Counted from the stretch's first letter, positions 33,463 to 64,000 are shown. The stretch: DNA of 64,000 nt from Eledone cirrhosa (GCA_964016885.1 OZ024761.1:8990001-9054000), one strand, 5' to 3'. The notes: generated by a model from the letters alone, not told the origin. Translations and numbers: made by a program.

Positions 33463-33726
33463 TATAAAGAACAAAGAAGGTGTGGTAAGATACCAGGTGG
33501 ACCATAACGCACCAGAGTACTCAATACTTGGGGTAGTAGAGTGGGTAATAGGAAAAGGGTGAGGACCCCGACGACTGAGGTCTGGCCACTTCTACAGCTA
33601 CATTCGGATCATTCGAATCTAGCTGTTGTAATGGCCGGAGCTCATTTCCTATACATCTATACATAATATATGAAAAGATTCAGGAGCCCAACGGCTGAAA
33701 TCCGGCCGTTCTGACAGTTATATATA

Positions 33727-34075
33727 TCATCATCATCATCATCATCATCATTTTACGTCCGCTTTTTCCTTGCTTGCAAGGGTGGGACGGGAACTGGTTC
33801 TGGCTTGATTTCTACAGCTGGATGCCCTTCCTAACACCAACCTCATTTACACTGAGTGCTGGGTGCTTTTTTACTGTGGCACCTCCACGACCACTTTGCA
33901 GTGGAATGATAGGGACCCCACTCCCTATCATCTCATTTCTACAGCTGAGTAAACTGGAGCAATGTGAAATAAAGTGTCTTGCTCAAGGAAACAACACATC
34001 ACCCGGTCTGAGAATTGAACTCACAACCTTTTGATTGCAAGGCCAATGCTCTAACCACTAAGCCATGTGCCTCCA
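33727..34075 (-). mobile_element. Full-length tRNA-derived SINE with (GAT)n tail
   Basis: On - strand: A-box TGGCTTAGTGG, B-box GAGTTCAATTC, central ccttgagcaagacacttt...ttgctccag domain, tail ggacgtaaaatgatgatg. Confidence 0.85.
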
Positions 34076-34103
34076 TACACATATATATATATCATCATCA
34101 TCA

Positions 34104-34362
34104 TTCTGTTTTCTACCTATATATATATATATATATATATATCTGTTTTCTACTTATATATATATATATATATTCTGTTTTCTACTTATATATATATATA
34201 TTCTGTTTTCTACTTATATATATATATATATTCTGTTTTCTACTTATATATATATATATTCTGTTTTCTACTTATATATATATATATTCTGTTTTCTACT
34301 TATATATATATATATATTCTGTTTTCTACCTATATATATATATATATATTCTATTTTCTACT
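34104..34362. repeat. Compound repeat [TTCTGTTTTCTACTT(AT)n] x ~9 just upstream of the exon 2 acceptor
   Basis: Direct reading; fewer units in the mirror at ~63320-63490. Confidence 0.85.
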
Positions 34363-34370
34363 TGCTTCAG

Positions 34371-36046
34371 AGACCATTCCAAAGACTGCTCCAGTTTGTC
34401 CAGTTCCAACCAGGCTGAAAGATTAGAGGATTTAAAACCATCCAGGTATCATGACAAAAGCTCAGTGCAGACATCAACATTGCCAGCAGCTAAGATGGAT
34501 ATCTCTAGAATCAAACCAGCACTGAAACCTTCAGAAATTTCACCAATGAAGGGTTTGCAGTTTTTGCGTGAAAACGGAGGACCATGTTCTGAGAATGACA
34601 GAGTTTCTGTCAGCAAAACAGGTTTTGTCAGTACTGGCTCCATTAGTTGTGTTGATGGTGTTAGTAATGGCTGTGGCGGTGGTAGAACTTCTATAAATGC
34701 CAGAGATAGTGTGGATGGTGTCACTGATTGGGACATTCTGACAAAGTGTATTGATGATTGTGTCAGTGATAGAGCCACTGGCAAGGGCAAGGTCAAGAGT
34801 GGATTGATTTGTGATGATGATGATGATGTTGATGATGATGATGGTTGTGGTGGTGGTGATATTTATGTAAGTGGCAGTGGAGGAGTTGAAGAGTATGGTG
34901 TCTGTGGAGGTTATAAGTATGGTGGTGGTCGCAGTGGGGCTTGTAAGTATGGTGTTGGTGGTGGAGGTGATGCGTATGGTGTTGGTGGTGGTGACGGTTA
35001 TGAGTATGGTGGTGGTGGTGGTGGTGGTCGAGACAATAACTATGGTGTCGTTGGCAGCAGTAGAAGATATGAATATGGTGGTGGTGGTGGTGGTGATGCG
35101 TATGGTGTTGGTGTTGGTGGCGGTGACGGTTATGAGTATGGTGGTGGTGGTGGTGGAGACAATAACTATGGTGTCGTTGGCAGCAGTAGAAGATATGAAT
35201 ATGGTGGTGGTGTTGGGGGCAATGAGTATGGTGTTGGTGTTGGTGGCGGTGATGGTTATGAATATGGTGGTGGTGGTGGAGGCAATGAGTATGATGTTGG
35301 TGGCGGTGATGGTTATGAGTATGGTGGTGGTGGTGGTGGAGGCAATGAGTATGGTGTTGGTGTTGGTGGCGGTGTTGGAGGCAATGAGTATGGTGTTGGT
35401 GTTGGTGGCGGTGATGGTTATGAATATGGTGGTGGTGGTGGTGGAGGCAATGAGTATGATGTTGGTGTTGGTGGCGGTGATGGTTATGAGTATGGTGGTG
35501 GTGGTGGAGGCAATGAGTATGATGTTGTCACCAGCAGATTGTCTTTGGAAACTGCTCGATCCATTTGTGATGACCATCGAGACACAATGAGACCTTCCAT
35601 GTCTAATAAAGGACCATGTTACAAAACACTGAATGTCACACGGGGCGCGAAATATTCTCCATTGACCCCAGAGCCTTATAACTCTGTTCTACACATTACC
35701 AGGGACGATAAATTCTCAAAGGGGTTAGCAGAAAAAGAGGAACATGAACCAAGAAGTCCCCTAAAAATTTTGAGATCTGATCACCACACCAGCATTTGGC
35801 ATGGGGGTTCAACTAACATTTATAATGATGATGATGATGATTGGAATGATCGACTAACTAATGTTTATAATGATGATGGTTGTGGTGGTATTGATGAGGA
35901 TGCTGGCCTTAGGAATGATGGACTAACTAATGTTTATAATGATGATGGTTTTGGTGGTGATGATGATGATGATGGTGTTGGCCCTAGGCATGATGGTGAG
36001 GATGATGGTGATGGTGGCATTTGGCATGATAGATTAACTGGCGTTT

Positions 36047-36077
<31 letters not shown>

Positions 36078-36417
36078 TGACATTGGTGATGATGATGATT
36101 TCGAAGTGAGGATTGATAAGTGCTGTGACATCTGGAAATTTGGAGACAACAACAAAAGCAACCAAGCTAACTCTGGTTTTGAAGGAAAGGCAAGCTGGCA
36201 AGATGATGCTGATGATGATGTTGCTACTGGAAGACAAGAGCCTGAAGTGGGACGAGGTTTTATAAAAAGCCCACATGTACGTAAAGGGGGTCGACAGTAT
36301 AGTTGGCAACTCAACGAGAGGGGGAACCAAATAACGGCCAGTACTTCTGTCAGACATTCTAGAAATAATAAAGAAAATGTTAAGAGAGAAGTGCCAAGAG
36401 TTGGACACAAAAGTCAG
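34371..36417 (+). CDS. MIIP: MIIP-like copy A exon 2 (2047 nt; low-complexity, Gly/Tyr- and Asp-rich repeats)
   Basis: Acceptor cttgcttcAG, open frame throughout, donor CAG|GTGAGT phase 0 matching exon 3. Confidence 0.75.
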
Positions 36418-36444
36418 GTGAGTAATGAACTGGTATATGTTATA

Positions 36445-36730
36445 TGATGGTAGTGGTGGGGTGGTGGTAGTGGTCGTTGTGGTGGTGATGGTGGTGGTAG
36501 TAGTGGTGATTGTGGTAGTGGTGGTGGTAGTGGTAGTGATGGTGGTAGTGGTAATGGTGGTGGTAGTGGCAGTGTGGCGGTGATGAGATGGTTGTGGCAG
36601 AAGTGATGATAATGGTGGTGGTGGTGGGGAGGTAGTGATGGGATGGTTGTGGCAGAAGTGATGATGGTGGTGGTATTGGTAGTGATGGTGGTGGTGCTGG
36701 TAGCAGTAGTGGCAACAATCGTGGTAGTGT
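36445..36730. repeat. (GGT/GTA)n intronic trinucleotide tract
   Basis: Direct reading; shorter in the mirror at 61200-61342. Confidence 0.85.
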
Positions 36731-36922
36731 TAATATAATCAACCCCCTCTGCCGTCTCAGTAGGGGGGACAACTCTGAAATAAATTCAGTAGAAAGGGAG
36801 GGGAAAGGCAAGGAGGGAGAGTGATGGGCTCCAGGACATGGCAGTAGTGTCTGTCTCTCAGTCTGTTTTTTTTTATTTTGGTTATCCCCTTCTCGCTCTC
36901 ATTTTGATGTCGTGTCTTTCAG

Positions 36923-37074
36923 AAAGAGAAGTTGCTAGGATACGACTGGATAGCTGGTATCCTTGACAACCAGGAGCACCATTCAGCGATGCAATTGTCC
37001 AATGATTATTTTGAAGAACTCAAGACTTTCTGGAAGGAATATCAAGCCAGACCATTAACAGATGCCAACCAAGT
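36923..37074 (+). CDS. MIIP: MIIP-like copy A exon 3 (KEKLLGYDWIAGILDN...YFEELKTFW...)
   Basis: LGYDWIAG.LD motif, recognised as the MIIP domain; acceptor gtctttcAG, donor GT|GTATGT phase 2. Confidence 0.85.
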
Positions 37075-37187
37075 GTATGTAGAAGCAGGAAGAGATACAC
37101 TTTCCAACATTATTTTCTGCAATCAATTATTGTAGTTCTGTTCTTTTTATTACAAATATTGCACATTCCTGCAATCATATTCTACTA

Positions 37188-37625
37188 TACATCTGTTCTC
37201 TACACCTCTACATTACATCTGTTCTCTACACCTCTACATTACGTCTGTTCTCTACACCTCTACATTACATCTGTTCTCTACACCTCTACATTACATCTGT
37301 TCTCTACACCTCTACATTACATCTGTTCTCTACACCTCTGCATTACATCTGTTATCTACACCTCTACTGTATATATCTACTTTACATCTGTTCTCTACAC
37401 CTCTACTGTACATCTATACTCTACACCTCTACTGTACATCTCTCCTACACATCTGTTCTCTACATCTATACTTTACACCTCTACTGTACATATCTACTTT
37501 ACATCTGTTCTCTACACTTCTACTGTATATATCTACTTTACATCTGTTCTCTACACCTCTACTGTATATCTCTACTTTACATCTGTTCTCTACATCTTTT
37601 ACATACATTTGTACTTTACATCTGT
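37188..37625. repeat. ~26-bp minisatellite (ACATCTGTTCTCTACACCTCTACATT)
   Basis: Direct reading; mirror at ~60235-60770 is longer. Confidence 0.9.
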
Positions 37626-37875
37626 ATTCTTCGTCTGTCACATTCAGAGGCTAGACCAGTCAGATGACCATGTTTTGCTAATATGAATTATATATGTTAT
37701 CATTGTCTCATGTCTGTTTTGCCTCTATATTTTAGACTAGGTAGATCAGGCAGTTAGCCACTGTCAACTATATTACCTTCAAGATAATTAATTTAAAAAA
37801 AATAATTAAACTCCTGTCAGTTCTTTCACCTCTTTTCACTCCTCTTCCTTTTCTTCTCTTTCTCTTGTTTTTAAG

Positions 37876-37937
37876 GAAGAACTTTGTGGATGAAACTCGG
37901 GAGCCTCAGTTGATCCAAGACATACTCACAGAATCAA
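37876..37937 (+). CDS. MIIP: MIIP-like copy A exon 4 (KNFVDETREPQLIQDILTES)
   Basis: Long pyrimidine tract plus ttaAG, donor A|GTGAGT; phases 2 and 1 fit both neighbours. Confidence 0.75.
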
Positions 37938-38007
37938 GTGAGTAAGCTCTTTATATTCTTAGGATTTAGAGGCAGTGTGTCGTGGCAGTGACACTGGATG
38001 GTGTGCC

Positions 38008-38465
38008 ATCATCATCATCATCATCATTTTACATCCGCTTTCCCTTGCTTACAAGGGTGGGACGGATCCTATTCAGCACAGCATCTCTCCTCTTGTCACG
38101 GTCCTTCGTCATCTCCGTGAGCTTCAGTGATCTGAGCTCTGCTCTCACCTCACCACTTCCGCCCATGTTCTTTGTGGTCTTCTTCTACGGCATCTTCCGT
38201 CTACTGGGATTTCTTGGCACTTCTTTACCAAGCGGTCATCCTCCATGCACATCACATGTCCATACCATCTCAGCCTTCTCTCCCGCACACCATAACTTAT
38301 CCCTCTTATACCCAGTTTCTTTCTCAACTTGTCCATGCTTGGTCGTTCACGCACATTAACATAGCACATCCAACGGAGCGTGCTTGCTTTGTTTCTCTTC
38401 AGCCATCGCATATCCTCCACAGTTGCTGCCCATGGCTCACTACCATGCAGCATCAGGCATGCCAT
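38008..38465 (-). mobile_element. RTE-clade LINE 3' fragment with (GAT)n tail
   Basis: LHGSEPW...LRWMC...RERRLRWYGHV...GR.RRRRP..TW.EVV, typical of the RTE ORF C-terminus. Confidence 0.85.
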
Positions 38466-38789
38466 CTCCGAATCAATTCTATTCTCTGTTAATATTTGCC
38501 GTAATCCAGTAATTTATTACTTAACCCCTTCAGTGCCATAGACGAGATAGCTCACCCTAACATGTATGCATCCAGTGCCACAGATGAGATAACTCGTCCT
38601 AACGTATTTGAACTCTTTTCCATCTGTCATAACTTCTAAGTTATGAGCTCGTTTCCAACAGTTCAGAAATACCATATGTCAATACAGCATCCCTAATAAC
38701 ACCATCAGGCGTTACATGACCATACATACATATAAGTTGAACCCCACCCCCCATTTTACCATTGTTTTTTTGGTTACATTTTTTTCTAG

Positions 38790-39300
38790 GGTGTATTAGT
38801 TCTCTCCAGTGGTCTCTGTCTTTCATCCTCGCCGCTATGTCCTGCATCTCCAAGAGACAGGTGTCTGTCCTTAGGGTATCAATATATGTCAACCTCGTTC
38901 TCCCTCTTCTAGTGTGTCCATGTAGGGGCTCCCACAGGAGCACTGAGTGCAGTGTCAACTCTGGATGCCGGTGAGCATGTCCAGCTAACCTCAGTCTCCT
39001 CTGTGTCATTTTTGAGAGGCTCACGTACAGCTCTGAGTTCTTCATCCTCAGTGTATACTGATTAATGTTCAAAGCCATCCTCAGCATTCTCGTGTAGCAC
39101 CCATTCACCATCTGAGTGAGTCTCAGACCTGTACAGAAGCACAGACTCCACCATCCACCAAACCAACCAACCATCCATCGATGGTGCCAAAGAGTGAACC
39201 ATCTCGTGGTTGGGATGCTAGATTTTCCTAGAAATAGCAGCCAAAATTCCACCATATCGACACATACAGCAGCACAGATTCCACTGAAGCGATGAAGAGA
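38790..39300 (-). mobile_element. Second non-LTR (RTE/RTE-X-like) fragment, degenerate
   Basis: RMLRMALNI...NSELY...RRLRLAGHAHRHPE...LLWEP..G..RRGR..LTYID. Confidence 0.75.
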
Positions 39301-39463
39301 TGGTCCTTGATTTATATTTAAGTATATATATATACTCTTTTAGTCTTTTACCTGTTCCAGCCATCCGACTGAGGCCATGCTGGGGCACCACTCTGTATGG
39401 CAATTATTGTAAAGAATCTTTTGTCTGATTGTTTTGTTTCATTTTCTTTCTTTCCATTGAAAG

Positions 39464-39608
39464 AGATCAAGTCATTTTACGTGAATAATCGGTTATTTTC
39501 GGAGCCTATCAAGAAGAAGTCGATCTTAACTTCTAAAGAATCGTCTAAAGTCAATCGCAGCAACATTGCTAAAAGTAAAACTACCTTTACTTCTCCAAGA
39601 TATGTCAG
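39464..39608 (+). CDS. MIIP: MIIP-like copy A exon 5 (IKSFYVNNRLFSEP...SPRYV-R)
   Basis: Y.VN.RLF..P and P..VR motifs of the MIIP domain; acceptor after pyrimidine tract, donor AG|GTAAAT; phases 1 and 2. Confidence 0.8.
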
Positions 39609-39629
39609 GTAAATCTGAAAATTTCTTGT

Positions 39630-40775
39630 TCATACATACACACACAACACATACATACATACACAAGACATACATACATACACACACACTGACATAGTGA
39701 CATACATATACACACAACACATACATATAGTGACATATACACACAACACATACATACACACACACATATATACACAAATACACACACATGCACATACACA
39801 CACACATATAGTGACATATGCATACATACACACACAACACATACAGACATACACACACACATACACATACATATAGTGACATACACACACAACACATACA
39901 TACATACACTGACATACACACACATGCACATACACACACAACACATACATACACAAATACACACACATGCACAACACATACATACATTACATACATACAC
40001 TGACATACGCACACATACACAAATACACACACATATAGTGACATACACACACAACACATACACACACTCACATACATATATTCATATGCACACACATACA
40101 CGCACTCACATACATATATTCATATACACACACTCACATACACCTGCAACACATACACGCACTCACATATACACACATACATATATTCATATACACACAC
40201 ATACACGCACTCACATACATATATTCATATACACATATGCACACACACACATACATATACACACACTCACATACACCTGCAACACATGCATGCACACACA
40301 TACATATATTCTTATACACATATGCACACACACCTGCAACACATACGCACACATTCACATACACACACTCATACATATACACACACATACACATATGCAT
40401 ACATACACAACACATACACTGACATACACACACAGCACCTACATACATAGTGACATACACACACAACACATATATACATTACATACAGACACACACAACA
40501 CATATGCACACACTCATATACACCTGCAACACATACACATATGCACACATTCACATACACCTGCAACACATACACACACTCATACATATATTCATATACA
40601 CATATGCACACACATACATATATTCTTATAAGCATATGCACACACTCACATACACCTGCAACACATACATATATTCATATACACACACTCACATACACCT
40701 GCAACACATACATATATTCATATACACACACATACACATATGCACACACTCACATACACCTGCAACACATACAGG
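39630..40775. repeat. Complex (CA/TA)-rich microsatellite
   Basis: Direct reading; mirror at 56885-58202. Confidence 0.95.
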
Positions 40776-40861
40776 TCTAACTGATGCTAATGTGGAAGAT
40801 AGACGTTAAATGATGATGATGATGATACTTTATTTTAATTGTTTCATTTTGTCTGTTGTAG

Positions 40862-40961
40862 AATCACGATGCCACAGAATCTGTTGGTAACAAAACCCAA
40901 AGTCAGTAAAACTCCTCGGGTGGGTACCTGTAACCCCACTGAGAGTTTATCTCTTGGAAAG
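40862..40961 (+). CDS. MIIP: MIIP-like copy A exon 6 (ITMPQNLLVTKPKVSKTPRVGTCNPTESLSLGK)
   Basis: Acceptor gtctgttgtAG, donor AAG|GTCTGT; phases 2 and 0; resembles MIIP V.IP...L and D.L.L segments. Confidence 0.75.
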
Positions 40962-41024
40962 GTCTGTCTTCTTACATTTTAAGACGATGTTTGGTTGTTT
41001 GAACGTTTAAGTGGAATTGTTTAA

Positions 41025-42843
41025 CCCTTTAGCATTTAAACTGGTTGTATCTGGCCAGAATTATCTCACCTCTTTCTGCTTAAACCAGTTGTATCTGGCC
41101 AGAATTATCTCACCTCTTTCTGCTTAAACCAGTTGTATCTGGCCAGAATTATCTCACCTCTTTCTGCTTAAACCAGTTGTATCTGGCCAGAATTATCTCA
41201 CCTCTTTCTGCTTAAACCAGTTGTATCCGGCCAGAATTCTCTCATCTCTTTCTGCTTAAACCAGTTGTATCCGGCCAGAATTATCTCACCTCTTTCTGTT
41301 CAAACCGGTTGTATCCGGCCAGAATTATCTCACCTCTTTCTGTTCAAACCAGTTGTATCCGGCCAGAATTATCTCACCTCTTTCTGTTCAAACCAGTTGT
41401 ATCCGGCCAGAATTATCTCACCTCTTTCTGCTTAAACCAGTTGTATCCGGCCAGAATTATCTCACATCTTTCTGCTTAAACCAGTTGTATCTGGCCAGAA
41501 TTCTCTCACCTCTTTCTGCTTAAACCAGTTGTATCTGGCCAGAATTCTCTCACCTCTTTCTGTTCAAACCAGTTGTATCCGGCCAGAATTCTCTCACCTC
41601 TTTCTGTTCAAACCAGTTGTATCCGGCCAGAATTATCTCACCTCTTTCTGCTTAAACCAGTTGTGTCTGGCCAGAATTATCTCACCTCTTTCTGTTCAAA
41701 CCAGTTGTATCTGGCCAGAATTATCTCACTTCTTTCTGTTCAAACCAGTTGTATCCGGCCAGAATTATCTCACCTCTTTCTGCTTAAACCAGTTGTGTCT
41801 GGCCAGAATTATCTCACCTCTTTCTGTTCAAACCAGTTGTATCTGGCCAGAATTATCTCACCTCTTTCTGTTCAAACCAGTTGTATCTGGCCAGAATTAT
41901 CTCACCTCTTTCTGTTCAAACCAGTTGTATCTGGCCAGAATTATCTCACCTCTTTCTGCTTAAACCAGTTGTATCTGGCCAGAATTCTCTCACCTCTTTC
42001 TGTTCAAACCAGTTGTATCTGGCCAGAATTATCTCACCTCTTTCTGTTCAAACCAGTTGTATCTGGCCAGAATTATCTCACCCCTTTCTGTTCAAACCAG
42101 TTGTATCTGGCCAGAATTATCTCACCTCTTTCTGTTCAAACCAGTTGTATCTGGCCAGAATTATCTCACCTCTTTCTGTTCAAACCAGTTGTATCTGGCC
42201 AGAATTATCTCACCTCTTTCTGTTCAAACCAGTTGTATCCGGCCAGAATTATCTCACCTCTTTCTGTTCAAACCAGCTGTATCTGGCCAGAATTCTCTCA
42301 CCTCTTTCTGTTCAAACAAGTTGCATCTGGCCAGAATTATCTCATCTCTTTCTGCTTAAACCAGTTGTATCTGGCCAGAATTATCTCACCTCTTTCTGTT
42401 CAAACCAGTTGTATCTGGCCAGAATTATCTCACCTCTTTCTGTTCAAACCAGTTGTATCTGGCCAGAATTATCTCACCTCTTTCTGCTTAAACCAGTTGT
42501 ATCTGGCCAGAATTATCTCACCTCTTTCTGATTAAACCAGTTGTATCTGGCCAGAATTCTCTCACCTCTTTCTGTTCAAACAAGTTGTATCTGGCCAGAA
42601 TTATCTCATCTCTTTCTGCTTAAACCAGTTGTATCTGGCCAGAATTCTCTCACCTCTTTCTGTTCAAACTGGCCATATCCGGCCAGAAATTTCTCACCTC
42701 TTTCTGTCCAAACCAGCTGTAACTGGCCACTCATACTGATGTTAAGGTATTGTTATCAAAATATCTTTGATTCGATATTGCGAAATAAAGCCTTTACCAT
42801 GAAAATACAAAAGTAAATATAGAGTAATGTGAATGCTATAGGG
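41025..42843. mobile_element. piggyBac-like MITE with an internal 44-bp tandem array (~38 units)
   Basis: TTAA|CCCTTTAGCATT ... AATGCTATAGGG|TTAA; unit aaaccagttgtatctggccagaattatctcacctctttctgttc is present about once in the copy at 2562-2769. Confidence 0.85.
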
Positions 42844-43153
42844 TTAATGTGAGATGATGACTATTGCTTCTCTCCATTTCCAACTCTACGTCCATCTATC
42901 TCTATCTTTCACTATATCCATCTATCTTGATATACACCCCTCTATATCTCTCTCTCTATATATATCTATATATATATTCCTCTTTCTCTATATCCCTCTA
43001 TCTATCTATCTCAGTATCCATCTAGCTCTCTCCGTATCCATCTATCTCTATCTCTCACCTTTCTATATGTTGTCATCCATTAATCCAGTGACAATTGTTT
43101 CAACCATTTTTCTTTCTTTCTTCTTCTCCTGCCCCTCCTCTTCCTGCTGGCAG

Positions 43154-43255
43154 CACTGTGTAATGGGATGGGATAACACCCAGCATGGCAAACAGTTCAC
43201 ATCTTCCAACATCAGCATCAAACATGCTTCAGGAGGCAGAACCAAGGAAACACTG
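43154..43255 (+). CDS. MIIP: MIIP-like copy A exon 7 (HCVMGWDN...KETL)
   Basis: HC..GW motif closing the MIIP domain; acceptor cAG after pyrimidine tract, donor CTG|GTAAGT phase 0. Confidence 0.85.
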
Positions 43256-43499
43256 GTAAGTTTGGGTAAGTTGGGCGGGCAGGTGGGGAACAATATTCAA
43301 GGCAAGACAAGCTGGGGACCACCACAACAACATCAGCCACCTTATCAACTTCCTGAAAATTTGGCACCCATGTTGTCCGAAGTATAGTCGTCTAATTTTC
43401 ATTGATGTAATGGCTGGAGTTTTGTAATGTAATTACTACTGTGGGGCCCTGGAAAATGCCATAGATTTAGATAGAGTTCCATCAGAGTGTCGGCTCTTT

Positions 43500-43632
43500 A
43501 CCAGATTGATAGTCCCATGAGAATGTCAGGTTTTACCGCTCCCAAACTGATAGTCCTATGAGAACATCAGGTCTTACCTCTCCCAAATTGATAGTCCCAC
43601 CAGAATGTCAGGTCTTACCTCTCCCAAATTGC
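43500..43632. repeat. ~39-bp degenerate tandem repeat
   Basis: aaattgatagtccc..agaatgtcaggtcttacctctccc units; more copies in the mirror at 54478-54685. Confidence 0.7.
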
Positions 43633-53762: not shown

Positions 53763-54200
53763 TTATGGAGTCATACTTTGAAGCTGCTGTTGTCGTACCA
53801 GTTCTTTGTTCTCGTATTTTGCCTTCAATCGATCCAAGTCAGTGATGAGAGAGTAAGTGTTGTCCAACAGCTCACTAGTCGACAGTGTGCTGTTCGTCGT
53901 CGCTCTCGAAGAGTGAGGGGTTGATGGTGTGACAACAGAACAAGTTGCTACAGCATTGGTAACACGACGCAGAAATGAGCTTGAAGACTTCTTCTCCGAG
54001 TATGACTTGGAGTTCAACAATCCAGGTTGATGTTGCAGTGATTTCCGTTCTCTCGAGGAGTCCTTCTTATGACATCTTCCCCCACTGGCAGCGGTGGGAA
54101 TCTGATAGTTTGTTGGTGTTTGAGTTAGCTGTTGATAGCGGCCTCTTGTTTGAAACAGTGATGTGGTCATGGATGCCAAATGTTCTGCTTCTTCCATCAT
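53763..54200 (-). CDS. MIIP: MIIP-like copy B exon 8
   Basis: 145-aa ORF with 5 aa differences from copy A; acceptor retained. Confidence 0.7.
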   Translation of the reverse strand: MMEEAEHLASMTTSLFQTRGRYQQLTQTPTNYQIPTAASGGRCHKKDSSRERKSLQHQPGLLNSKSYSEKKSSSSFLRRVTNAVATCSVVTPSTPHSSRATTNSTLSTSELLDNTYSLITDLDRLKAKYENKELVRQQQLQSMTP

Positions 54201-54930
54201 CTGAAAGTAAAATTATTTGTAAATCGAATTAGAAGTTGGTGTATTTTTTACTAAATAAAAGATGGGTCTCAGTTCATATACACCGATATCCATCTTTTCC
54301 CCATCCAGTGGGCTTATCCAACCTGTTGTTAAACTATTTTATTTAGTCAAAATCTTCAAATTCTGCTCTGCTTTCTAAACACACAAACATGATTTTTCTT
54401 TTTTTAATTTCCATAAACGGGAAAAAATTAATTGTTATGATTGTAAAATAATATGATAACAGACATCATAAACTGCAATTTGGGAGAGGTAAAACCTGAC
54501 ATTCTGGCCAGACTTTCAATTTGGGAGAGGTAAGACCTGACATTCTGATAGGGCTATCAGTTTGGGAGAGGTAAGACATGGGACTATCAATTTTGGAGAG
54601 GTAAGACCTGACATTCTGGTAGGACTATTAATTTGGGAGAGGTAAGACCTGGCATTCTCATGGGACTATCAATCTGGTAAAGAGCCGATACTCTGATGGG
54701 ACTCTATCTAAATCTATGGCATTTTCCAGGTCCCCACAGTAGTAATTACATTACAAAACTCCAGCCATTACATCAATGAAAATTAGACGACTATACTTCG
54801 GACAACATGGGTGCCAAATTTTCAGGAAGTTCATAAGGGGCTGATGTTGTTGTTGTGGTTGTGGTGGTCCACATCTTGTCTTGCCTTGAATATTGTTCCC
54901 CACCTGCCCGCCCAACTTACCCAAACTTAC

Positions 54931-55032
54931 CAGTGTTTCCTTGGTTCTGCCTCCTGAAGCATGTTTGATGCTGATGTTGGAAGATGTGAACTGTTTGCCA
55001 TGTTGGGTGTTATCCCATCCCATTACACAGTG
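54931..55032 (-). CDS. MIIP: MIIP-like copy B exon 7
   Basis: HCVMGWDN...KETL, splice sites retained. Confidence 0.85.
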
Positions 55033-55378
55033 CTGCCAGCAGGAAGAGCAGGGGCAGGAGAAGAAGAAAGAAAGAAAAATGGTTGAAACAATTGTCACTG
55101 GATTAATGGATGACAACATATAGAAAGGTGAGAGATAGAGATAGATGAATACAGAGAAAGTTAGATGGATACTGAGATAGATAGAGGGATATATATATAG
55201 AGAGAGAGATGGAGGGATAGAGAGAGAGAGGAATATATATATAGAGAGAGTTAGACAGATATATATATATATATAAAGAGAGATGGAGGGATATAGAGAT
55301 AGATAGAGGGGTATATATGGATATAGATGGATGTAGAGTTGGAAATGGACAGAAGCAATAGTCATCATCTCACATTAA

Positions 55379-56633
55379 CCCTATAGCATTCACATTACTC
55401 TATATTTACTTTTGTATTTTCAAGGTAAAGGCTTTATTTCACATAATATCGAATCAAAGAGATTTTGATAACAATACCTTAACATCAGTATGAGTGGCCA
55501 GTTACAGCTGGTTTGGACAGAAAGAGGTGAGAGAATTCTGGCCAGATACAGCTGGTTTGAACAGAAAGAGGTGAGAGAATTCTGGCTGGATGCAACTGGT
55601 TTGAACAGAAAGAGGTGAGTGTGAGAGAATTCTGGCCAGACACAACTGGTTTGAACAGAAAGAGGTGAGATAATTCTGGCCAGATACAACTGGTTTGAAC
55701 AGAAAGAGGTGAGATAATTCTGGCCAGACACAACTGGTTTGAACAGAAAGAGGTGAGATAATTCTGGCCGGATACAGCTGGTTTGAACAGAAAGAGGTGA
55801 GATAATTCTGGCCGGATACAACTGGTTTGAACAGAAAGAGGTGAGAGAATTCTGGCCAGATACAACTGGTTTGAACAGAAAGAGGTGAGATAATTCTGGC
55901 CAGATACAACTGGTTTAAGCAGAAAGAGGTGAGATAATTCTGGCCAGTTATGACTGGTTTAAGCAGAAAGAGGTGAGATCATTCTGGCCAGATACAGCTG
56001 GTTTGTACAGAAAGAGGTGAGATAATTCTGGCCGGATACAGCTGGTTTGAACAGAAAGAGGTGAGATAATTCTGGCCAGATACAACTGGTTTGAACAGAA
56101 AGAGGTGAGATAATTCTGGCCAGATACAACTGGTTTGAACAGAAAGAGGTGAGATAATTCTGGCCAGATACAACTGGTTTGAACAGAAAGAGGTGAGAGA
56201 ATTCTGGCCAGATACAACTGGTTTGAACAGAAAGAGGTGAGATAATTCTGGCCAGATACAACTGGTTTGAACAGAAAGAGGTGAGATAATTCTGGCCAGA
56301 TACAACTGGTTTGAACAGAAAGAGGTGAGAGAATTCTGGCCGGATACAACTGGTTTAAGCAGAAAGATGCGAGATAATTCTGGCCAGATACAACTGGTTT
56401 GAACAGAAAGAGGTGAGATAATTCTGGCCAGATACAACTGGTTTGAACAGAAAGAGGTGAGAGAATTCTGGCCAGATACAACTGGTTTGAACAGAAAGAG
56501 GTGAGAGAATTCTGGCCAGATACAACTGGTTTGAACAGAAAGAGGTGAGAGAATTTTGGCTGGATACAACTGGTTTAAGCAGAAAGAGGTGAGAGAATTC
56601 TGGCCAGATACAACCAGTTTAAATGCTAAAGGG
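55379..56633. mobile_element. piggyBac-like MITE with a 44-bp array (~25 units), mirror of 41025-42843
   Basis: TTAA|CCCTATAGCATT...AATGCTAAAGGG|TTAA; 564 bp shorter than the arm A copy. Confidence 0.85.
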
Positions 56634-56696
56634 TTAAACAATTCCACTTAAACGTTCAAACAACCAAACATCGTCTTAAAATGTAAGAAGACAGAC

Positions 56697-56796
56697 CTTT
56701 CCAAGAGATAAACTCTCAGTGGGGTTACAGGTACCCACCCGAGGAGTTTTACTGACTTTGGGTTTTGTTACCAACAGATTCTGTGGCATCGTGATT
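56697..56796 (-). CDS. MIIP: MIIP-like copy B exon 6
   Basis: 100-nt reverse complement of 40862-40961 with splice sites. Confidence 0.75.
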
Positions 56797-56884
56797 CTAC
56801 AACAGACAAAATGAAACAATTAAAATAAAGTATCATCATCATCATCATTTAACGTCTATCTTCCACATTAGCATCAGTTAGACC

Positions 56885-58202
56885 TGTATGTGTTGCAGGT
56901 GTATGTGAGTGTGTGTATATGTGTATGTGTGTGTATATGAATATATGTATGTGTTGCAGGTGTATGTGAGTGTGTGCATATCAATATATGTATGTGTTGC
57001 AGGTGTATGTGAGTGTGTGTATATGAATATATGTATGTGTTGCAGGTGTATGTGAGTGTGTGCATATGCTTATAAGAATATATGTATGTGTGTGCATATG
57101 TGTATATGAATATATGTATGAGTGTGTGTATGTGTTGCAGGTGTATGTGAATGTGTGCATATGTGTATGTGTTGCAGGTGTATATGAGTGTGTGCATATG
57201 CGTGTATGTGTTGTGTGTGTCTGTATGTAATGTATATATGTGTTGTGTGTGTATGTCACTATGTATGTAGGTGCTGTGTGTGTATGTCACTATGTCAGTG
57301 TATGTATGTATGTGTTGTGTGTGCATGTATGTGTTGTGTATGTATGCATATGTGTATGTGTGTGTATATGAATATATGTATGAGTGTGTGTATGTGAATG
57401 TGTGCATATGTGTATGTGTTGCAGGTGTGTGTGCATATGTGTATAAGAATATATGTATGTGTTGCAGGTGTATGTGAGTGTGTGCATATGTGTATATGTA
57501 TGTGTGTGTATGTGTGTGTGTGCATATGTGTATATGAATATATGTATGTGTTGTATGTGAGTGCGTGTATGTGTGTGCATATGTGTATATGAATATATGT
57601 ATGTGTGTATATGTGAGTGCGTGTATGTGTTGCAGGTGCATATGTGTATATGAATATATGTATGTGAGTGCGTGTATGTGTGTGCATATGAATATATGTA
57701 TGTGAGTGTGTGTATGTGTTGTGTGTGTATGTCACTATATGTGTGTGTGTGTATTTGTGTATGTGTGCGTATGTCAGTGTATGTATGTAATGTATGTGAA
57801 TGTATGTATGTGTTGTCCATGTGTGTGTATTTGTGTATGTATGTGTTGTGTGTGTATGTCACTATATGTATGTGTATGTGTGTGTGTATGTCTGTATGTG
57901 TATGTATGTGTTGTGTGTGTATTTCAGTGTATGTATGTGTTGTGTGTGTATGTCTATGTGTGGGTGTATGTATGTATGCATATGTCACTATATGTGTGTG
58001 TGTATGTGCATGTGTGTGTATTTGTGTATATATGTGTGTGTGTATGTATGTGTTGTGTGTATATGTCACTATATGTATGTGTTGTGTGTATATGTCACTA
58101 TATGTATGTGTTGTGTGTATATGTATGTCACTATGTCAGTGTATGTGTTGTGTGTGTATGTATGTATGTATGTGTTGTGTATGTGTTGTGTGTGTATGTA
58201 TG
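56885..58202. repeat. Complex (TG/TA)-rich microsatellite
   Basis: Direct reading. Confidence 0.95.
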
Positions 58203-58224
58203 AACAAGAAATTTTCAGATTTAC

Positions 58225-58369
58225 CTGACATATCTTGGAGAAGTAAAGGTAGTTTTACTTTTAGCAATGTTGCTGCGATTGACTTTAGACGATTCTTTAG
58301 AAGTTAAGATCGACTTCTTCTTGATAGGCTCCGAAAATAACCGATTATTCACGTAAAATGACTTGATCT
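58225..58369 (-). CDS. MIIP: MIIP-like copy B exon 5
   Basis: 145 nt, peptide identical to copy A. Confidence 0.8.
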
Positions 58370-58529
58370 CTTTCAATGGAAAGAAAGAAAATGAAACAAA
58401 ACAATCAGACAAAAGATTCTTTACAATAATTGCCATACAGGGTGGTGCCCCAGCATGGCCTCAGCCGGATGGCTGGAACAGGTAAAAGAGTATATAAATA
58501 TATATACTGAAATATAAATCAAGGACCAT

Positions 58530-59075
58530 CTCTTCATCGCTTCAGTGGAATCTGTGCTGCTGTATGTGTCGATATGATGGAATTTTGGCTGCTATTTCTA
58601 GGAAAATCTAGCATCCCAACCATGAGATGGTTCACTCTTTGGCACCGTCGATGGATGGTTGGTTTGGTTGGTTTGGTGGATGGTGGAGTCTGTGCTTCTG
58701 TACAGGTCTGAGACTCACTCAGATGGTGGATGGGTGCTACACGAGAATGCTGAGGATGGCTCTGATTAATATCAGTATACACTGAGGATGAAGAACTCAG
58801 AGCTGTACAGGAGTCTCTCGAAAGTCAGCTCAAAAGTAACACAGAGGAGACTGAGGTTAGCTGGACATGCTCACCGACATCCAGAGTTGACATTGCACTC
58901 AGTGCTCCTGTGAGAGCCCCTACATGGACACACTAGAAGAGGGAGAACAAGGTTGACATATTGATACCCTAAGGACAGACACCTGTCTCTTGGAGATGCA
59001 GGACATAGCGGTGATGATGAAAGACAGAGACCACTGGAGAGAACTAATACATGGATCTCGGGAATTTTCCCCACC
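58530..59075 (+). mobile_element. RTE/RTE-X-like fragment (mirror of 38790-39300)
   Basis: Reverse complement with several indels. Confidence 0.7.
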
Positions 59076-59400
59076 CTAGAAAAAAAATGTAACCAAAAAT
59101 ACAATGGTAAAATGGGGGGTGGGGTTCAACTTATATGTATGTATGGTCATGTAACGCCTGATGGTGTTATTAGGGATGCTGTATTGACATATGGTATTTC
59201 TGAACTGTTGGAAACGAGCTCATAACTTAGAAGTTATGACAGATGGAAAAGAGTTCAAATACGTTAGGACGAGTTATCTCATCTGTGGCACTGGATGCAT
59301 ACATGTTAGGGTGAGCTATCTCGTCTATGGCACTGAAGGGGTTAAGTAATAAATTACTGGATTACGGCAAATATTAACAGAGAATAGAATTGATTCGGAG

Positions 59401-59858
59401 ATGGCATGCCTGATGCTGCATGGTAGTGAGCCATGGGCAGCAACTGTGGAGGATATGCGATGGCTGAAGAGAAACAAAGCAAGCACGCTCCGTTGGATGT
59501 GCTATGTTAATGTGCGTGAACGACCAAGCATGGACAAGTTGAGAAAGAAACTGGGTATAAGAGGGATAAGTTATGGTGTGCGGGAGAGAAGGCTGAGATG
59601 GTATGGACATGTGATGTGCATGGAGGATGACCGCTTGGTAAAGAAGTGCCAAGAAATCCCAGTAGACGGAAGATGCCGTAGAAGAAGACCACAAAGAACA
59701 TGGGCGGAAGTGGTGAGGTGAGAGCAGAGCTCAGATCACTGAAGCTCACGGAGATGACGAAGGACCGTGACAAGAGGAGAGATGCTGTGCTGAATAGGAT
59801 CCGTCCCACCCTTGTAAGCAAGGGAAAGCGGATGTAAAATGATGATGATGATGATGAT
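59401..59858 (+). mobile_element. RTE LINE 3' fragment (mirror)
   Basis: 106-aa translation identical to 38145-38465; (GAT)n tail. Confidence 0.85.
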
Positions 59859-59928
59859 GGCACACCATCCAGTGTCACTGCCACGACACACTGCCTCTAA
59901 ATCCTAAGAATATAAAGAGCTTACTCAC

Positions 59929-59990
59929 TTGATTCTGTGAGTATGTCTTGGATCAACTGAGGCTCCCGAGTTTCATCCACAAAGTTCTTC
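59929..59990 (-). CDS. MIIP: MIIP-like copy B exon 4
   Basis: 62 nt, splice sites retained. Confidence 0.75.
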
Positions 59991-60234
59991 CTTAAAAACA
60001 AGAGAAAGAGAAGAAAAGGAAGAGGAGTGAAAAGAGGTGAAAGAACTGACAGGAGTTTAATTATTTTTTTTAAATTAATTATCTTGAAGGTAATATAGTT
60101 GACAGTGGCTAACTGCCTGATCTACCTAGTCTAAAATATAGAGGCAAAACAGACATGAGACAATGATAATATATATAATTCATATTAGCAAAACATGGTC
60201 ATCTGACTGGTCTAGCCTCTGAATGTGACAGACG

Positions 60235-60770
60235 AAGAATACAGATGTAAAGTACAAATGTATGTAAAAGATGTAGAATACAGGTGTAGAGAACAGATGT
60301 AAAGTAGATATGTGCAGTAGAGGTGTAGAGAACAGATGTAAAGTAGATATGTACAGTAGAGGTGTAAAGTATAGATGTAGAGAATAGATGTAGAGAACAG
60401 ATGTAGAATACAGATGTATAGTAGTGGTGTAGGAGAGATGTACAGTACAGATATACAGTAGAGGTGTAGAGTATAGATGTACAGTAGAGGTGTAGATAAC
60501 AGATGTAAAGTAGAGGTGCAGAGAACAGATGTAATGTAGAGGTGTAGATAACAGATGTAAAGTACAGGTGTAGAGAACAGATGTAATGTAGAGGTGTAGA
60601 GAACAGATGTAATGTAGAGGTGTAGAGAACAGATGTAATGTAGAGGTGTAGAGAACAGATGTAATGTAGAGGTGTAGATAACAGATGTAAAGTAGAGGTG
60701 TAGAGAACAGATGTAATGTAGAGGTGTAGAGAACAGATGTAATGTAGAGGTGTAGAGAACAGATGTATAG
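60235..60770. repeat. ~26-bp minisatellite (mirror)
   Basis: aatgtagaggtgtagagaacagatgt units. Confidence 0.9.
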
Positions 60771-60881
60771 TAGAATATGATTGCAGGAATGTGCAATATT
60801 TGTAATAAAAAGGACAGAAACTACAATAATTGATTGCAGAAAATAATGTTGGAAAGTGTATCTCTTCCTGCTTCTACATAC

Positions 60882-61033
60882 ACTTGGTTGGCATCTGTTA
60901 ATGGTCTGGCTTGATATTCCTTCCAGAAAGTCTTGAGTTCTTCAAAATAATCATTGGACAATTGCATTGCTGAATGGTGCTCCTGGTTGTCAAGGATACC
61001 AGCTATCCAGTCGTATCCTAGCAACTTCTCTTT
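60882..61033 (-). CDS. MIIP: MIIP-like copy B exon 3
   Basis: 152 nt, LGYDWIAGILDN, identical peptide. Confidence 0.85.
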
Positions 61034-61371
61034 CTGAAAGACACAACATCAAAATGAGAGCGAGAAGGGGATAACCAAAATTAAAAAACAGACTGAGAGC
61101 CCATCACTCTCCCTCCTTGCCTTTCCCCTCCCTTTCTACTGAATTTGTTTCAGAGTTGTCCCCCCTACTGAGACGGAAGAGGGGGTTGATTATATCAACA
61201 CTACCACGACTGTTGCCACCCCACCGCCACTACTGCTACCACCACCACCACTACCACTATCATCACTTCTGCCACAACCATCACCACCACCACCACCACT
61301 ACCATCACCCCGCCACCACCACCACCACCCCACCACTACCATCATATAACATATACCAGTTCATTACTCAC

Positions 61372-61729
61372 CTGACTTTTGTGTCCAACTCTTGGCACTT
61401 CTCTCTTAACATTTTCTTTATTATTTCTAGAATGTCTGACAGAAGTACTGGCCGTTGTTTGGTTCCCCCTCTCGTTGAGTTGCCAACGATACTGTCGACC
61501 CCCTTTACGTACATGTGGGCTTTTTATAAAACCTCGTCCCACTTCAGGCTCTTGTCTTCCAGTAGCAACATCATCCTCATCATCATCAGCATCATCTTGC
61601 CAGCTTGCCTTTCCTTCAAAACCAGAGTTAGTTTGGTTGCTTTTGTTGTTGTCTCCAAATTTCCAGATGTCACAGCACTTATCAATCCTCACTTCGAAAT
61701 CATCATCATCATCACCAATGTCATCAGCA

Positions 61730-61760
<31 letters not shown>

Positions 61761-63313
61761 AAACGCCAGTTAATCTATCATGCCAAATGCCACCATCACC
61801 ATCATCCTCACCATCATGCCTAGGGCCAACACCATGCTCATCACCACCACCACCACAGCCATCATCATTATAAACATTAGTTAGTCCATCATTCCTAAGG
61901 CCAGCATCCTCATCACCACCACCACAACCATCATCATTATAAACATTAGTTAGTCCATCATTCCAATCATCATCATCATCATTATAAATGTTAGTTGAAC
62001 CCCCATGCCAAACGCTGGTGTGGTGATCAGATCTCAAAATTTTTAGGGGACTTCTTGGTTCATGTTCCTCTTTTTCTGCTAACCCCTTTGAGAATTTATC
62101 GTCCCTGGTAATGTGTAGAACAGAGCTATAAGGCTCTGGGGTCAATGGAGAATATTTCGCGCCCCTTGTGACATTCAGTGTTTTGTAACATGGTCCTTTA
62201 TTAGACATGGAAGGTCTTATTGTGTCTCGATGGTCATCACAAATGGATCGAGCAGTTTCCAAAGACAATCTGCTGGTGACAACATCATACTCATTGCCTC
62301 CACCACCACCACCATACTCATATCCATCACCGCCACCAACACCAACATCATACTCATTGCCTCCACCACCACCACCACCATATTCATAACCATCACCGCC
62401 ACCAACACCAACACCATACTCATTGCCTCCACCATACTCATAACCATCACCGCCACCAACATCATACTCATTGCCTCCACCACCACCACCACCATACTCA
62501 TAACCATCACCGCCACCAACACCAACACCATACTCATTGCCTCCAACACCGCCACCAACACCAACACCATACTCATTGCCTCCACCACCACCACCACCAT
62601 ACTCATAACCATCACCGCCACCAACATCATACTCATTGCCTCCACCACCACCACCACCACCATACTCATAACCATCACCGCCACCAACACCAACACCATA
62701 CGCATCGCCTCCAACACCACCACCACCAACACCATACTTACAAGCCCCACTGCGACCACCACCATACTTATAACCTCCACAGACACCATACTCTTCAACT
62801 CCTCCACTGCCACTTACATAAATATCACCACCACCACAACCATCATCATCATCAACATCATCATCATCATCACAAATCAATCCACTCTTGACCTTGCCCT
62901 TGCCAGTGGCTCTATCACTGACACAATCATCAATACACTTTGTCAGAATGTCCCAATCAGTGACACCATCCACACTATCTCTGGCATTTATAGAAGTTCT
63001 ACCACCGCCACAGCCATTACTAACACCATCAACACAACTAATGGAGCCAGTACTGACAAAACCTGTTTTGCTGACAGAAACTCCGTCATTCTCAGAACAT
63101 GGTCCTCCGTTATCACGCAAAAACTGCAAACCCTTCATTGGTGAAATTTCTGAAGGTTTCAGTGCTGGTTTGATTCTAGAGATATCCATCTTAGCTGCTG
63201 GCAATGTTGATGTCTGCACTGAGCTTTTGTCATGATACCTGGATGGTTTTAAATCCTCTAATCTTTCAGCCTGGTTGGAACTGGACAAACTGGAGCAGTC
63301 TTTGGAATGGTCT
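61372..63313 (-). CDS. MIIP: MIIP-like copy B exon 2 (1942 nt)
   Basis: Open frame, 105 nt (35 codons) shorter than copy A, acceptor and donor retained; exon 1 would lie beyond the window. Confidence 0.75.
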
Positions 63314-63422
63314 CTGAAGCAAGTAGAAAATAGAATATATATATATATATAAGTAGAAAACAGAATATATATATATATAAGTAGAAAACAGAATATATAT
63401 ATATATATATAAGTAGAAAACA

Positions 63423-63475
<53 letters not shown>

Positions 63476-63514
63476 TAGAAAACAGAATGATGATGATATA
63501 TATATATATGCGTA

Positions 63515-63860
63515 TGGAGGCACATGACTTAGTGGTTAGAGCATTGGCCTTGCAATCGAAAGGTTGTAAGTTCAATTCTCAGACCGTGTGATGTGTTGTT
63601 TCCTTGAGCAAGACACTTTATTTCACATTGCTCCAGTTTACTCAGCTGTAGAAATGAGATGATAGGGACTAGGGTCCCTATCATTCCACTGCAAAGTGGT
63701 CGTGGAGGTGCCACAGTAAAAAAGCACCCAGCACTCACTGTAAATGAGGTTGTTGTTAGGAAGGGCATCCAGCTGTAGAAATCAAGCCAGAACCAGTTCC
63801 CGTCCCACCCTTGCAGGCAGGGAAAAGTGGACGTAAAATGATGATGATGATGATGATGAT
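63515..63860 (+). mobile_element. Full-length tRNA-derived SINE (mirror of 33727-34075)
   Basis: A-box TGACTTAGTGG, B-box-like AAGTTCAATTC, (GAT)n tail. Confidence 0.85.
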
Positions 63861-64000
63861 ATATATATCTGTCAGAACGACCGGATTTCAGCCGTTGGGC
63901 TCCTGAATCTTTTCATATATTATGTATAGATGTATAGGAAATGAGCTCCGGCCATTACAACAGCTAGATTCGAATGTAGCTGTCGAAGCGGCCGGACCTC

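What the first reader, a model, noticed from the sequence alone, without database searches (positions are those of the whole stretch)
33577..64000. Giant gene-bearing palindrome: two intact MIIP-like genes tail-to-tail
Seen: arms of at least 13 kb (33577-47365 and 50595-64000) are reverse complements around a ~3.2-kb spacer. Exons 2-8 keep open frames and all splice sites in both arms, while tandem arrays differ in copy number. Known: gene-bearing palindromes maintained by arm-to-arm conversion are characteristic of mammalian sex-chromosome amplicons; MIIP is normally single-copy and linked to centrioles/cilia. Inference: an ampliconic, possibly germline-expressed duplication in an invertebrate.
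Basis: partly seen in the sequence, partly recalled or inferred. Interest (0 to 1): 0.75.

Follow-up and report, generated by a model that had tools for sequence, protein, structure and literature searches.

The report
Mirror-image duplication of octopus MIIP gene
In an octopus-type genome, the gene for the centriole protein MIIP sits as two intact, back-to-back mirror copies; they are likely a real, recent duplication on an ordinary chromosome, likely started by DNA folding back at a repeated element between the copies, and not a sex-chromosome amplicon.

Summary
The palindrome is there and is larger than reported. Arm A spans 4188-47349 and arm B 50630-67860, around a 3,280-bp spacer, with no assembly gap in 264 kb. 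Both arms carry a complete 8-exon MIIP gene (1052 and 1017 aa, all introns GT-AG). Arms differ at 130 of 9,482 non-repeat sites (1.37%), very patchily, which suggests some arm-to-arm conversion. Short-read contigs of one sample give about twice single-copy depth on exon 7, and the spacer shows two haplotypes there, so a haplotype misjoin is unlikely. One RNA run holds a spliced transcript. The sex-chromosome reading fails: two Z markers map to contig C28, not C22, arm identity is below 99%, and germline expression is untested. New here: the centre belongs to a non-coding repeat family whose 37-nt motif occurs 80 times, 62 of them as 31 inward-facing pairs 5-13 kb apart, almost all on three small chromosomes. 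At two other copies a flank has also been mirrored across the repeat. Best reading: inverted-repeat-primed fold-back or template switch, later partial conversion. Known kind of event, new instance, with a testable lead.

The parts
4188..47349 (+). Arm A of the inverted duplication (43.2 kb, of which 24.4 kb is satellite)
50630..64000 (-). Arm B, in-window part; it continues beyond the window to L001:3860 (17.2 kb in all) and there holds MIIP-B exon 1 at L001:1905-2017. A third, partial copy (end of intron 7, exon 8, 3' flank) lies further out at L003:3788-5138
47350..50629 (.). Spacer, 3,280 bp, about 31% GC; interior of the inverted-repeat unit; two haplotypes and single-copy depth in sample S1
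6165..6277 (+). MIIP-A exon 1 (ATG)
34371..36417 (+). MIIP-A exon 2, with Gly/Tyr and Asp/Asn repeat expansions absent from the Octopus orthologues
36923..37074 (+). MIIP-A exon 3 (Pfam MIIP match)
37876..37937 (+). MIIP-A exon 4
39464..39608 (+). MIIP-A exon 5
40862..40961 (+). MIIP-A exon 6
43154..43255 (+). MIIP-A exon 7
43773..44210 (+). MIIP-A exon 8, coding part to the stop (protein 1052 aa)
53763..54200 (-). MIIP-B exon 8 (protein 1017 aa)
54931..55032 (-). MIIP-B exon 7
56697..56796 (-). MIIP-B exon 6
58225..58369 (-). MIIP-B exon 5
59929..59990 (-). MIIP-B exon 4
60882..61033 (-). MIIP-B exon 3
61372..63313 (-). MIIP-B exon 2
6905..31347 (+). 40-bp satellite, 612.9 copies, in intron 1 of copy A; about 0.5 kb in copy B (L001:772-1279)
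31945..33461 (+). Arm-A-only insertion with a 112-bp array and a (GAT)n tail, in an (AT)n site; retroposon-like (inferred)
41044..42729 (+). 44-bp array in intron 6 of A (38.3 copies; 25.3 copies at 55495-56614 in B)
44802..47349 (+). Left inverted repeat of the multi-copy non-coding unit; 37-nt family motif at 45092-45128
50630..52970 (-). Right inverted repeat of the same unit; motif at 52645-52681
37697..38765 (.). Longest arm-to-arm identical run, 1,069 sites, covering exon 4 and a genome-wide repeat fragment in intron 4; candidate conversion tract
44806..45558 (.). Second identical run, 710 sites, over the repeat core

Best explanation
This is a 17-kb inverted copy of a whole MIIP gene, likely real and recent, on a likely autosome of an octopod, and it likely arose when a broken or stalled DNA strand annealed between the two halves of a pre-existing inverted-repeat unit just downstream of the gene and copied back through it. 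The 3.3-kb interior of that unit would be the fold-back loop and survives as the spacer. A further template switch, near a 41-bp minisatellite at the outer end of arm B, would have rejoined the chromosome and left the third exon-8 fragment. Since then the arms have drifted 1.4% apart, microsatellites and satellites have changed length, and patches have likely been re-homogenised by gene conversion. Both genes are intact and at least one is spliced into RNA, so the likely effect is extra MIIP dosage, not a new function. Shown: structure, gene models, divergence pattern, repeat family. Inferred: reality outside the assembly, fold-back origin, order of events, conversion, dosage.
For: Structure without gaps, with unrelated sequence beyond both outer ends. 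Depth: exon-7 contigs 10.6, 12.6, 12.1 in runs X1-X3 against a GC-matched single-copy control, pyruvate carboxylase exons, 3.59; 4.4 and 6.0; 8.85 and 3.7, and spacer contigs 2.9-9.0. Ratio 2.7, 2.1, 1.6, pooled 2.0; with 53-65% of 31-mers shared between arms I expect about 1.6 for a real duplication and 0.8 for two haplotypes. Spacer contigs of one sample come in a matching and a differing form (0 vs 4-5 changes plus 7 gap letters over 50020-50659), so the spacer is itself diploid. Contigs break at the inner arm edge: one ends at 47349, and three spacer contigs end 30 nt into arm B. Centre: the motif has 80 exact matches, 31 inward pairs against a shuffle mean of 8.6 and maximum 18 in 10,000. 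A unit 14.7 Mb away on C22 shares the long inner repeats and part of the interior at 68-89%, far more diverged than the arms, so the unit predates the duplication. At C25:14.73 Mb and C22:13.11 Mb the usual unlike flanks (P and Q) are replaced by the same flank on both sides, 96-100% identical. Patchiness: longest identical run 1,069 against a null mean maximum of 391, 0 of 5,000 permutations. RNA: an X4 contig joins exon 8 to exon 7, and X4 also joins two pyruvate carboxylase exons. Precedent: single-copy spacer bounded by inverted sequence in human fold-back duplications (PMC3907307, abstract); widely spaced, diverged repeats fold back in single-stranded DNA in yeast (PMC10164571, abstract).
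Against: No listed contig spans arm-spacer-arm, and the tool warns that contig depth is not a copy number; the control rests on 5 exon values and 12 spacer values, with wide scatter. Sample S1 may be the assembled animal, so fixation in the species is not shown. The MIIP unit shares only about 300 bp outward of the motif with the family's usual flanks, so its state before duplication is inferred. The region 67.9-90.3 kb is a mosaic that I could not resolve into one order of events. Patchy divergence can also come from crossing-over with other alleles. The third copy being closer to B (9 of 11 informative sites) needs either a later event or conversion. No breakpoint signature separates fold-back from ectopic recombination or aberrant transposition. 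In the cited human and yeast work the fold-back gives a dicentric chromosome, so an interstitial product needs extra steps that are only inferred here.
Confidence: 0.6

Rival explanations
1. Assembly artefact: one MIIP locus whose two haplotypes, possibly of an inversion polymorphism, were joined through the central inverted repeat.
For: 1.37% divergence with array-length differences could be allelic. The central repeat offers a place for a haplotype switch. No spanning read was seen. Other giant palindromes in this assembly are unconfirmed by reads (AI notes, unchecked).
Against: Exon-7 depth is about 2.0 times the single-copy level where about 0.8 is expected. The spacer is itself heterozygous. 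No gaps in 264 kb. A third exon-8 copy and unlike outer flanks need further errors.
Confidence: 0.1
2. Real duplication, but made by ectopic recombination or aberrant transposition of a mobile foldback-like or Helitron-related element, not by fold-back priming.
For: The unit is dispersed in at least 31 paired copies; the paired cores compared are 83-100% identical. One side has a shared outer end about 6,055 bp from the motif in 5 of 7 stretches aligned, two of them copies of one event. A Helitron-type Pif1 fragment lies beside the C25:14.73 Mb unit. Galileo makes inversions by ectopic recombination (PMC2775673, search listing).
Against: No transposase-length frame in the MIIP centre. No matching second terminus or target-site duplication found. 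Confinement of 74 of 80 motifs to three chromosomes fits local duplication better than free transposition.
Confidence: 0.2
3. A selected, germline-expressed ampliconic palindrome maintained long term by conversion, as on mammalian X and Y.
For: Both genes intact; exons 3-7 have 0 amino-acid changes in 187 unmasked codons; identical tracts; a centriole protein could matter in sperm (inference).
Against: Z markers are on C28. Identity is 98.6% with many indels. Exons 1, 2 and 8 differ near neutrally (14 non-synonymous, 3 synonymous; pN 0.011, pS 0.008). Named relatives show one locus each, so no long-term conservation is seen. The invariant core overlaps the identical tracts, so selection and conversion cannot be separated.
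Confidence: 0.1

Closest known systems
Human inverted duplications formed by fold-back (PMC3907307, abstract read) and yeast fold-back at inverted repeats (PMC10622511, PMC10164571, abstracts read)
   Same: Inverted duplicate arms around a normal-copy spacer bounded by inverted sequence.
   Different: Here the inverted sequence is a 2.5-kb member of a dispersed family, the product is interstitial with no terminal deletion, both genes stay whole, and the arms have aged to 1.4% divergence.
DUP-TRP/INV-DUP rearrangements (PMC11293582, search listing only)
   Same: One segment (exon 8 region) present three times with the middle copy inverted, next to inverted repeats.
   Different: The inverted segment is mostly two-copy, and 20 kb of mosaic repeat lies between arm B and the third copy; junctions were not resolved.
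Mammalian X and Y palindromes (PMC8327919, passages read; 10.1101/800185 and PMC8981503, search listings)
   Same: Arms over 8 kb, a spacer in the known size range, intact genes in both arms, signs of conversion.
   Different: Likely autosomal, 98.6% rather than >99% identity, unequal arms, no evidence of testis bias or of conservation across species.
Gene-bearing palindromes of the springtail Folsomia candida and the rotifer Adineta vaga (PMC5490193, passages read)
   Same: Inverted gene duplicates in an invertebrate genome (11 and 17 cases reported), so an invertebrate case is not new in itself.
   Different: Those are parthenogenetic species with collinear multi-gene blocks; this is a young single-gene case with a repeat family at the centre.
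Foldback-type elements such as Galileo and Tetris (PMC2775673, PMC4079207, search listings) and primate core duplicons (recalled, no call)
   Same: Long inverted repeats, non-coding AT-rich interior, association with rearrangements.
   Different: No transposase, no terminal pair and no target-site duplication found; the inverted repeats sit inside a larger asymmetric unit.
MIIP family (Pfam PF15734); Octopus sinensis LOC115224402, O. vulgaris CAI9740988.1, O. bimaculoides LOC106876358
   Same: Pfam match over the cut-off, and about 48% identity along the whole protein to the O. sinensis and O. vulgaris proteins.
   Different: About 260-300 extra residues, mostly Gly/Tyr and Asp/Asn repeats in exon 2, and two genes instead of one.

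Membership tests
MIIP family (PF15734) | Match to the Pfam model over the curated cut-off | tested here: met
   Exon 3: 32.6 bits, cut-off 27, E 7.9e-08; the other 5 of 6 exon queries gave no MIIP match
MIIP family (PF15734) | Orthology to named MIIP proteins along the whole length | tested here: met
   48-49% identity, collinear from first to last exon, with O. sinensis and O. vulgaris proteins
MIIP family (PF15734) | Localisation to the centriole A-C linker | not testable with these tools
   Shown for human MIIP only (PMC12290023, passages)
Mammalian-type sex-chromosome palindrome | Arms of 8-10 kb or more around a spacer | tested here: met
   17.2-kb arm, 3,280-bp spacer
Mammalian-type sex-chromosome palindrome | Arm identity above 99% | tested here: not met
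   130 differences in 9,482 non-repeat sites, 98.6%, plus many indels
Mammalian-type sex-chromosome palindrome | Location on a sex chromosome | tested here: not met
   Amnionless and OCIAD1, Z-linked in other cephalopods, map to C28; window is on C22. A third marker search (RH1 domain, for SPAG9) hit C1 and C1420, neither C22 nor C28
Mammalian-type sex-chromosome palindrome | Arm-to-arm gene conversion | tested here: inconclusive
   Strong clustering of differences, 0 of 5,000 permutations; no outgroup or population data to exclude allelic recombination
Mammalian-type sex-chromosome palindrome | Testis-biased expression | not testable with these tools
   One RNA-like run, no tissue on record
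Fold-back inverted duplication | Normal-copy spacer between two-copy arms | tested here: met
   Spacer depth close to the single-copy control, exon 7 about 2x; contig depth is a rough measure
Fold-back inverted duplication | Pre-existing inverted sequence at the spacer boundary | tested here: inconclusive
   A related unit with similar inner repeats and interior exists at C22:23.74 Mb; the ancestral state at this locus is not seen
Foldback or long-TIR DNA transposon (central unit) | Inverted repeats at both termini with a target-site duplication | tested here: not met
   Inverted repeats are internal to unlike P and Q flanks; one shared outer end only; no duplication seen
Foldback or long-TIR DNA transposon (central unit) | Transposase, or an autonomous partner | tested here: inconclusive
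   No non-repetitive frame of 120 aa or more in window 44500-53300; other units carry LINE pieces; a Pif1 fragment lies beside one unit; no genome-wide search for a partner

The most novel reading that the evidence does not exclude
A non-coding inverted-repeat unit, present in at least 31 paired copies mostly on three small chromosomes of this octopod, acts as a core duplicon: it repeatedly mirrors whatever lies beside it, making palindromes that conversion then keeps alike, and the MIIP pair is one whole-gene product of this engine. It could be a local driver of gene-family growth on these chromosomes.
Probability: 0.35. Interest if true: 0.65.

Novelty: new member of a known kind. Interest (0 to 1): 0.42.

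Why it matters
As a single locus it is a young inverted gene duplication, a known kind of event, and not an invertebrate sex-chromosome amplicon. It matters for two reasons. It is a case in this genome where short-read data speak for a giant palindrome being real. And its centre points to a countable family of inverted-repeat units, with mirrored flanks of different ages, which makes it directly testable whether one repeat seeds recurring palindromes and gene copies in cephalopods. It also gives a natural dosage and intron-length contrast (28 kb vs 2.6 kb first intron) for a centriole gene. Searches for a prior description (top 20, 15 and 10 rows seen) listed no paper on cephalopod palindromes or on MIIP in cephalopods; the library lacks most subscription papers.

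Tried and rejected
Sex linkage: rejected on two markers; the RH1/SPAG9 search was uninformative. Reads: no RNA holder was listed by the run search; X4 proved to be spliced only when laid. Read-through hairpin RNA across the spacer: no long X4 contig is listed in the spacer and no A-to-G excess is seen; a part without cover proves nothing, so this stays open. Structured RNA in the centre: Rfam gave 2 weak matches far below the gathering score, taken as chance. A clean transposon with termini and target-site duplication: not found. A single DUP-TRP/INV-DUP path explaining 67.9-90.3 kb: tried by hand and not reached. My first gene model cut exon 6 at 40919; the orthologue showed it runs to 40961. 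The exon-8 protein search returned only 1 relative among 628 candidates. Earlier-finding look-ups by place and by sequence were empty. Supplements of the bioRxiv dosage-compensation paper were not seen and may hold Z gene lists.
Full report
Observation. The window is G000:C22:8990001-9054000, in a 3.0-Gb genome. Self-comparison confirms an inverted repeat from 33577/64000 to 47349/50630. With 100 kb added on each side, the arms run 4188-47349 and 50630-67860 (positions above 64000 are extended window coordinates), and the 264 kb contain no N. Beyond the outer ends the sequence does not continue as a mirror. Arm A is longer because intron 1 holds 612.9 copies of a 40-bp satellite, against about 0.5 kb in arm B, and a 1.5-kb insertion.

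The genes. Eight exons in each arm give open frames of 1052 and 1017 aa, all seven introns GT-AG. Exon 3 matches Pfam MIIP over the cut-off; the other 5 of 6 exon queries did not match that model. The proteins align end to end with Octopus sinensis and O. vulgaris MIIP at 48-49%, which places the animal among octopods by inference. Exon 3 occurs twice in the genome and exon 8 three times. Named relatives show one locus each: the two O. vulgaris entries are identical over 548 aa, so isoforms; O. bimaculoides has two entries with one gene id given, Argonauta one entry. Collapsed assemblies could hide near-identical copies there. Human MIIP is a centriole A-C linker component whose loss breaks centrioles but not ciliogenesis (PMC12290023, passages).

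Real or artefact. Four coded runs hold the sequence, three from one sample. On the palindrome centre, exon-7 contigs have depths 10.6, 12.6 and 12.1, and the 12 spacer contigs I used (the three at 47750-48468 left out, because that part has a partial copy nearby) 2.9-9.0. On a GC-matched single-copy control, exons of the neighbouring pyruvate carboxylase gene, depths are 3.59; 4.4 and 6.0; 8.85 and 3.7. The exon-7 ratios are 2.7, 2.1 and 1.6, pooled 2.0. Since 53-65% of 31-mers are shared between arms there, I expect about 1.6 for a real duplication and 0.8 for two haplotypes. Spacer contigs from the same sample appear in a matching and a differing form, so the spacer is diploid. One arm contig ends exactly at 47349 and three spacer contigs end 30 nt into arm B, as expected at a branch. 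Against this: the tool warns that contig depth is not a copy number, scatter is wide, no listed piece spans the structure, and the sample may be the assembled animal. I put reality at about 0.9.

Expression. One X4 contig of 1,472 nt joins exon 8 directly to exon 7, and X4 also joins two pyruvate carboxylase exons, so X4 is spliced RNA. The contig mixes A-type and B-type letters, so it does not say which copy is transcribed. No tissue is on record.

Divergence. Outside tandem repeats and away from gaps the arms differ at 130 of 9,482 sites, 1.37%. The differences are clustered: identical runs of 1,069 and 710 sites against a null mean maximum of 391, with 0 of 5,000 permutations reaching the observed value. 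The longest run covers a repeat fragment whose other genomic copies are about 90% identical, so selection is an unlikely cause and conversion is likely, though allelic recombination is not excluded. Exons 3-7 have 0 non-synonymous and 2 synonymous changes; exons 1, 2 and 8 have 14 and 3 outside repeats. The third exon-8 copy sides with B at 9 of 11 variable sites.

Chromosome. Amnionless is Z-linked in O. vulgaris (10.1101/2024.12.09.627507, passages) and OCIAD1 is in the conserved Z block (PMC10925132, parts 1-2 of 5 and supplement passages). Both map to C28. A search aimed at SPAG9 hit C1 and C1420 and is uninformative. C22 is therefore likely an autosome.

The centre. The inner 2.5 kb of each arm belongs to a repeat family. 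A 37-nt motif from it has 80 exact matches: C8 2, C22 14, C23 49, C25 11, unplaced 4. Of neighbours within 14 kb, 31 face inward, 2 outward and 1 lie in tandem; strand shuffling gives a mean of 8.6 inward and at most 18 in 10,000. I examined 19 other units in 18 fetched regions. The common form has an inverted repeat of about 1.1 kb, an AT-rich interior and two unlike flanks, P and Q. At C25:14.73 Mb both sides carry P to about 3.9 kb at 96-99%; at C22:13.11 Mb both carry Q to 1.07 kb at 98-100%; at C22:23.74 Mb about 2.1 kb of flank is mirrored at 87%. Most of the other units show little mirroring beyond the standard repeat. The C22:23.74 Mb unit shares the long inner repeats and part of the interior with the MIIP centre at 68-89%, so this architecture is older than the 1.4% arms. 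I found one shared outer end on the Q side, but no terminal pair, target-site duplication or transposase, so I do not file the unit as a transposon. Rfam gave nothing credible.

Mechanism. The simplest reading is that a break or stalled fork beside the unit let one repeat half anneal to the other, looping out the interior, and synthesis ran back through MIIP for 17 kb before switching template near the 41-bp minisatellite at 67858. This matches fold-back duplications with a normal-copy spacer in humans (PMC3907307, abstract) and fold-back at inverted repeats in yeast (PMC10622511 and PMC10164571, abstracts). The rejoining steps are inferred, and the mosaic at 67.9-90.3 kb was not resolved. Ectopic recombination or aberrant transposition is the main rival.

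Comparison and novelty. It works like a fold-back inverted duplication with some conversion. It fails two defining tests of mammalian sex-chromosome palindromes, location and identity above 99% (PMC8327919, passages; listings). Invertebrate gene-bearing palindromes are already reported (PMC5490193, passages). The rows listed by searches showed nothing on cephalopod palindromes or cephalopod MIIP. Two unchecked AI notes describe other giant palindromes in this genome; they are leads only. Verdict: a new member of a known kind, interest 0.42, with the repeat family as the part worth pursuing.

Noticed in passing
G000:C23 about 9.372-9.416 Mb (L032-L035, L078): A second giant palindrome: arms of about 19.5 kb at 99.9-100% identity in unmasked blocks around a 4.4-kb spacer, each arm holding one inverted-repeat unit, with the shared Q-side ends facing each other. 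Very recent or an artefact; no reads laid.
   Followed up: partly
G000:C22, C23, C25, C8 (L021-L079): Family of non-coding inverted-repeat units, 80 motif matches, many units in neighbouring doublets 12-35 kb apart; interiors often hold a (TA)-rich self-complementary satellite.
   Followed up: partly
L019:4174-4515 and L014:2027-2413: Pyruvate carboxylase-like gene upstream of MIIP-A on the + strand, spread over more than 60 kb; used as the single-copy control.
   Followed up: partly
window 1-4490 and L011:4550-10000: Tandem mosaic of about 2.74-kb units built from short inverted-repeat element pieces, 96-99% identical, at the outer end of arm A and absent from arm B.
   Followed up: no
L001:3858 to L003:6324 (extended window 67858-90324): Mosaic with 41-bp minisatellite arrays in both orientations, an older partial copy of the central repeat and spacer (73861-76811, 78-95%), and the exon-8 fragment.
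   Followed up: partly
window 34900-36080: Exon 2 has in-frame Gly/Tyr-rich and Asp/Asn-rich repeat expansions, absent from Octopus orthologues and differing in length between the copies.
   Followed up: no
L043:6270-6797: Pif1 2B-domain fragment (E 2.5e-13), Helitron-like by recall, beside the C25:14.73 Mb unit.
   Followed up: no
L023 about 6800-7700 and L028:1462-2556: A degenerate zinc-finger-like tandem array near the C22:23.74 Mb unit, and a C2H2 zinc-finger frame (recognised by eye) beside a C23 unit.
   Followed up: no
window 45242-46397: RNA contigs of X4 cover parts of the inner arm downstream of exon 8, where nine AATAAA sites lie in 45670-47274; possibly a long 3' untranslated region reaching into the repeat.
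   Followed up: no
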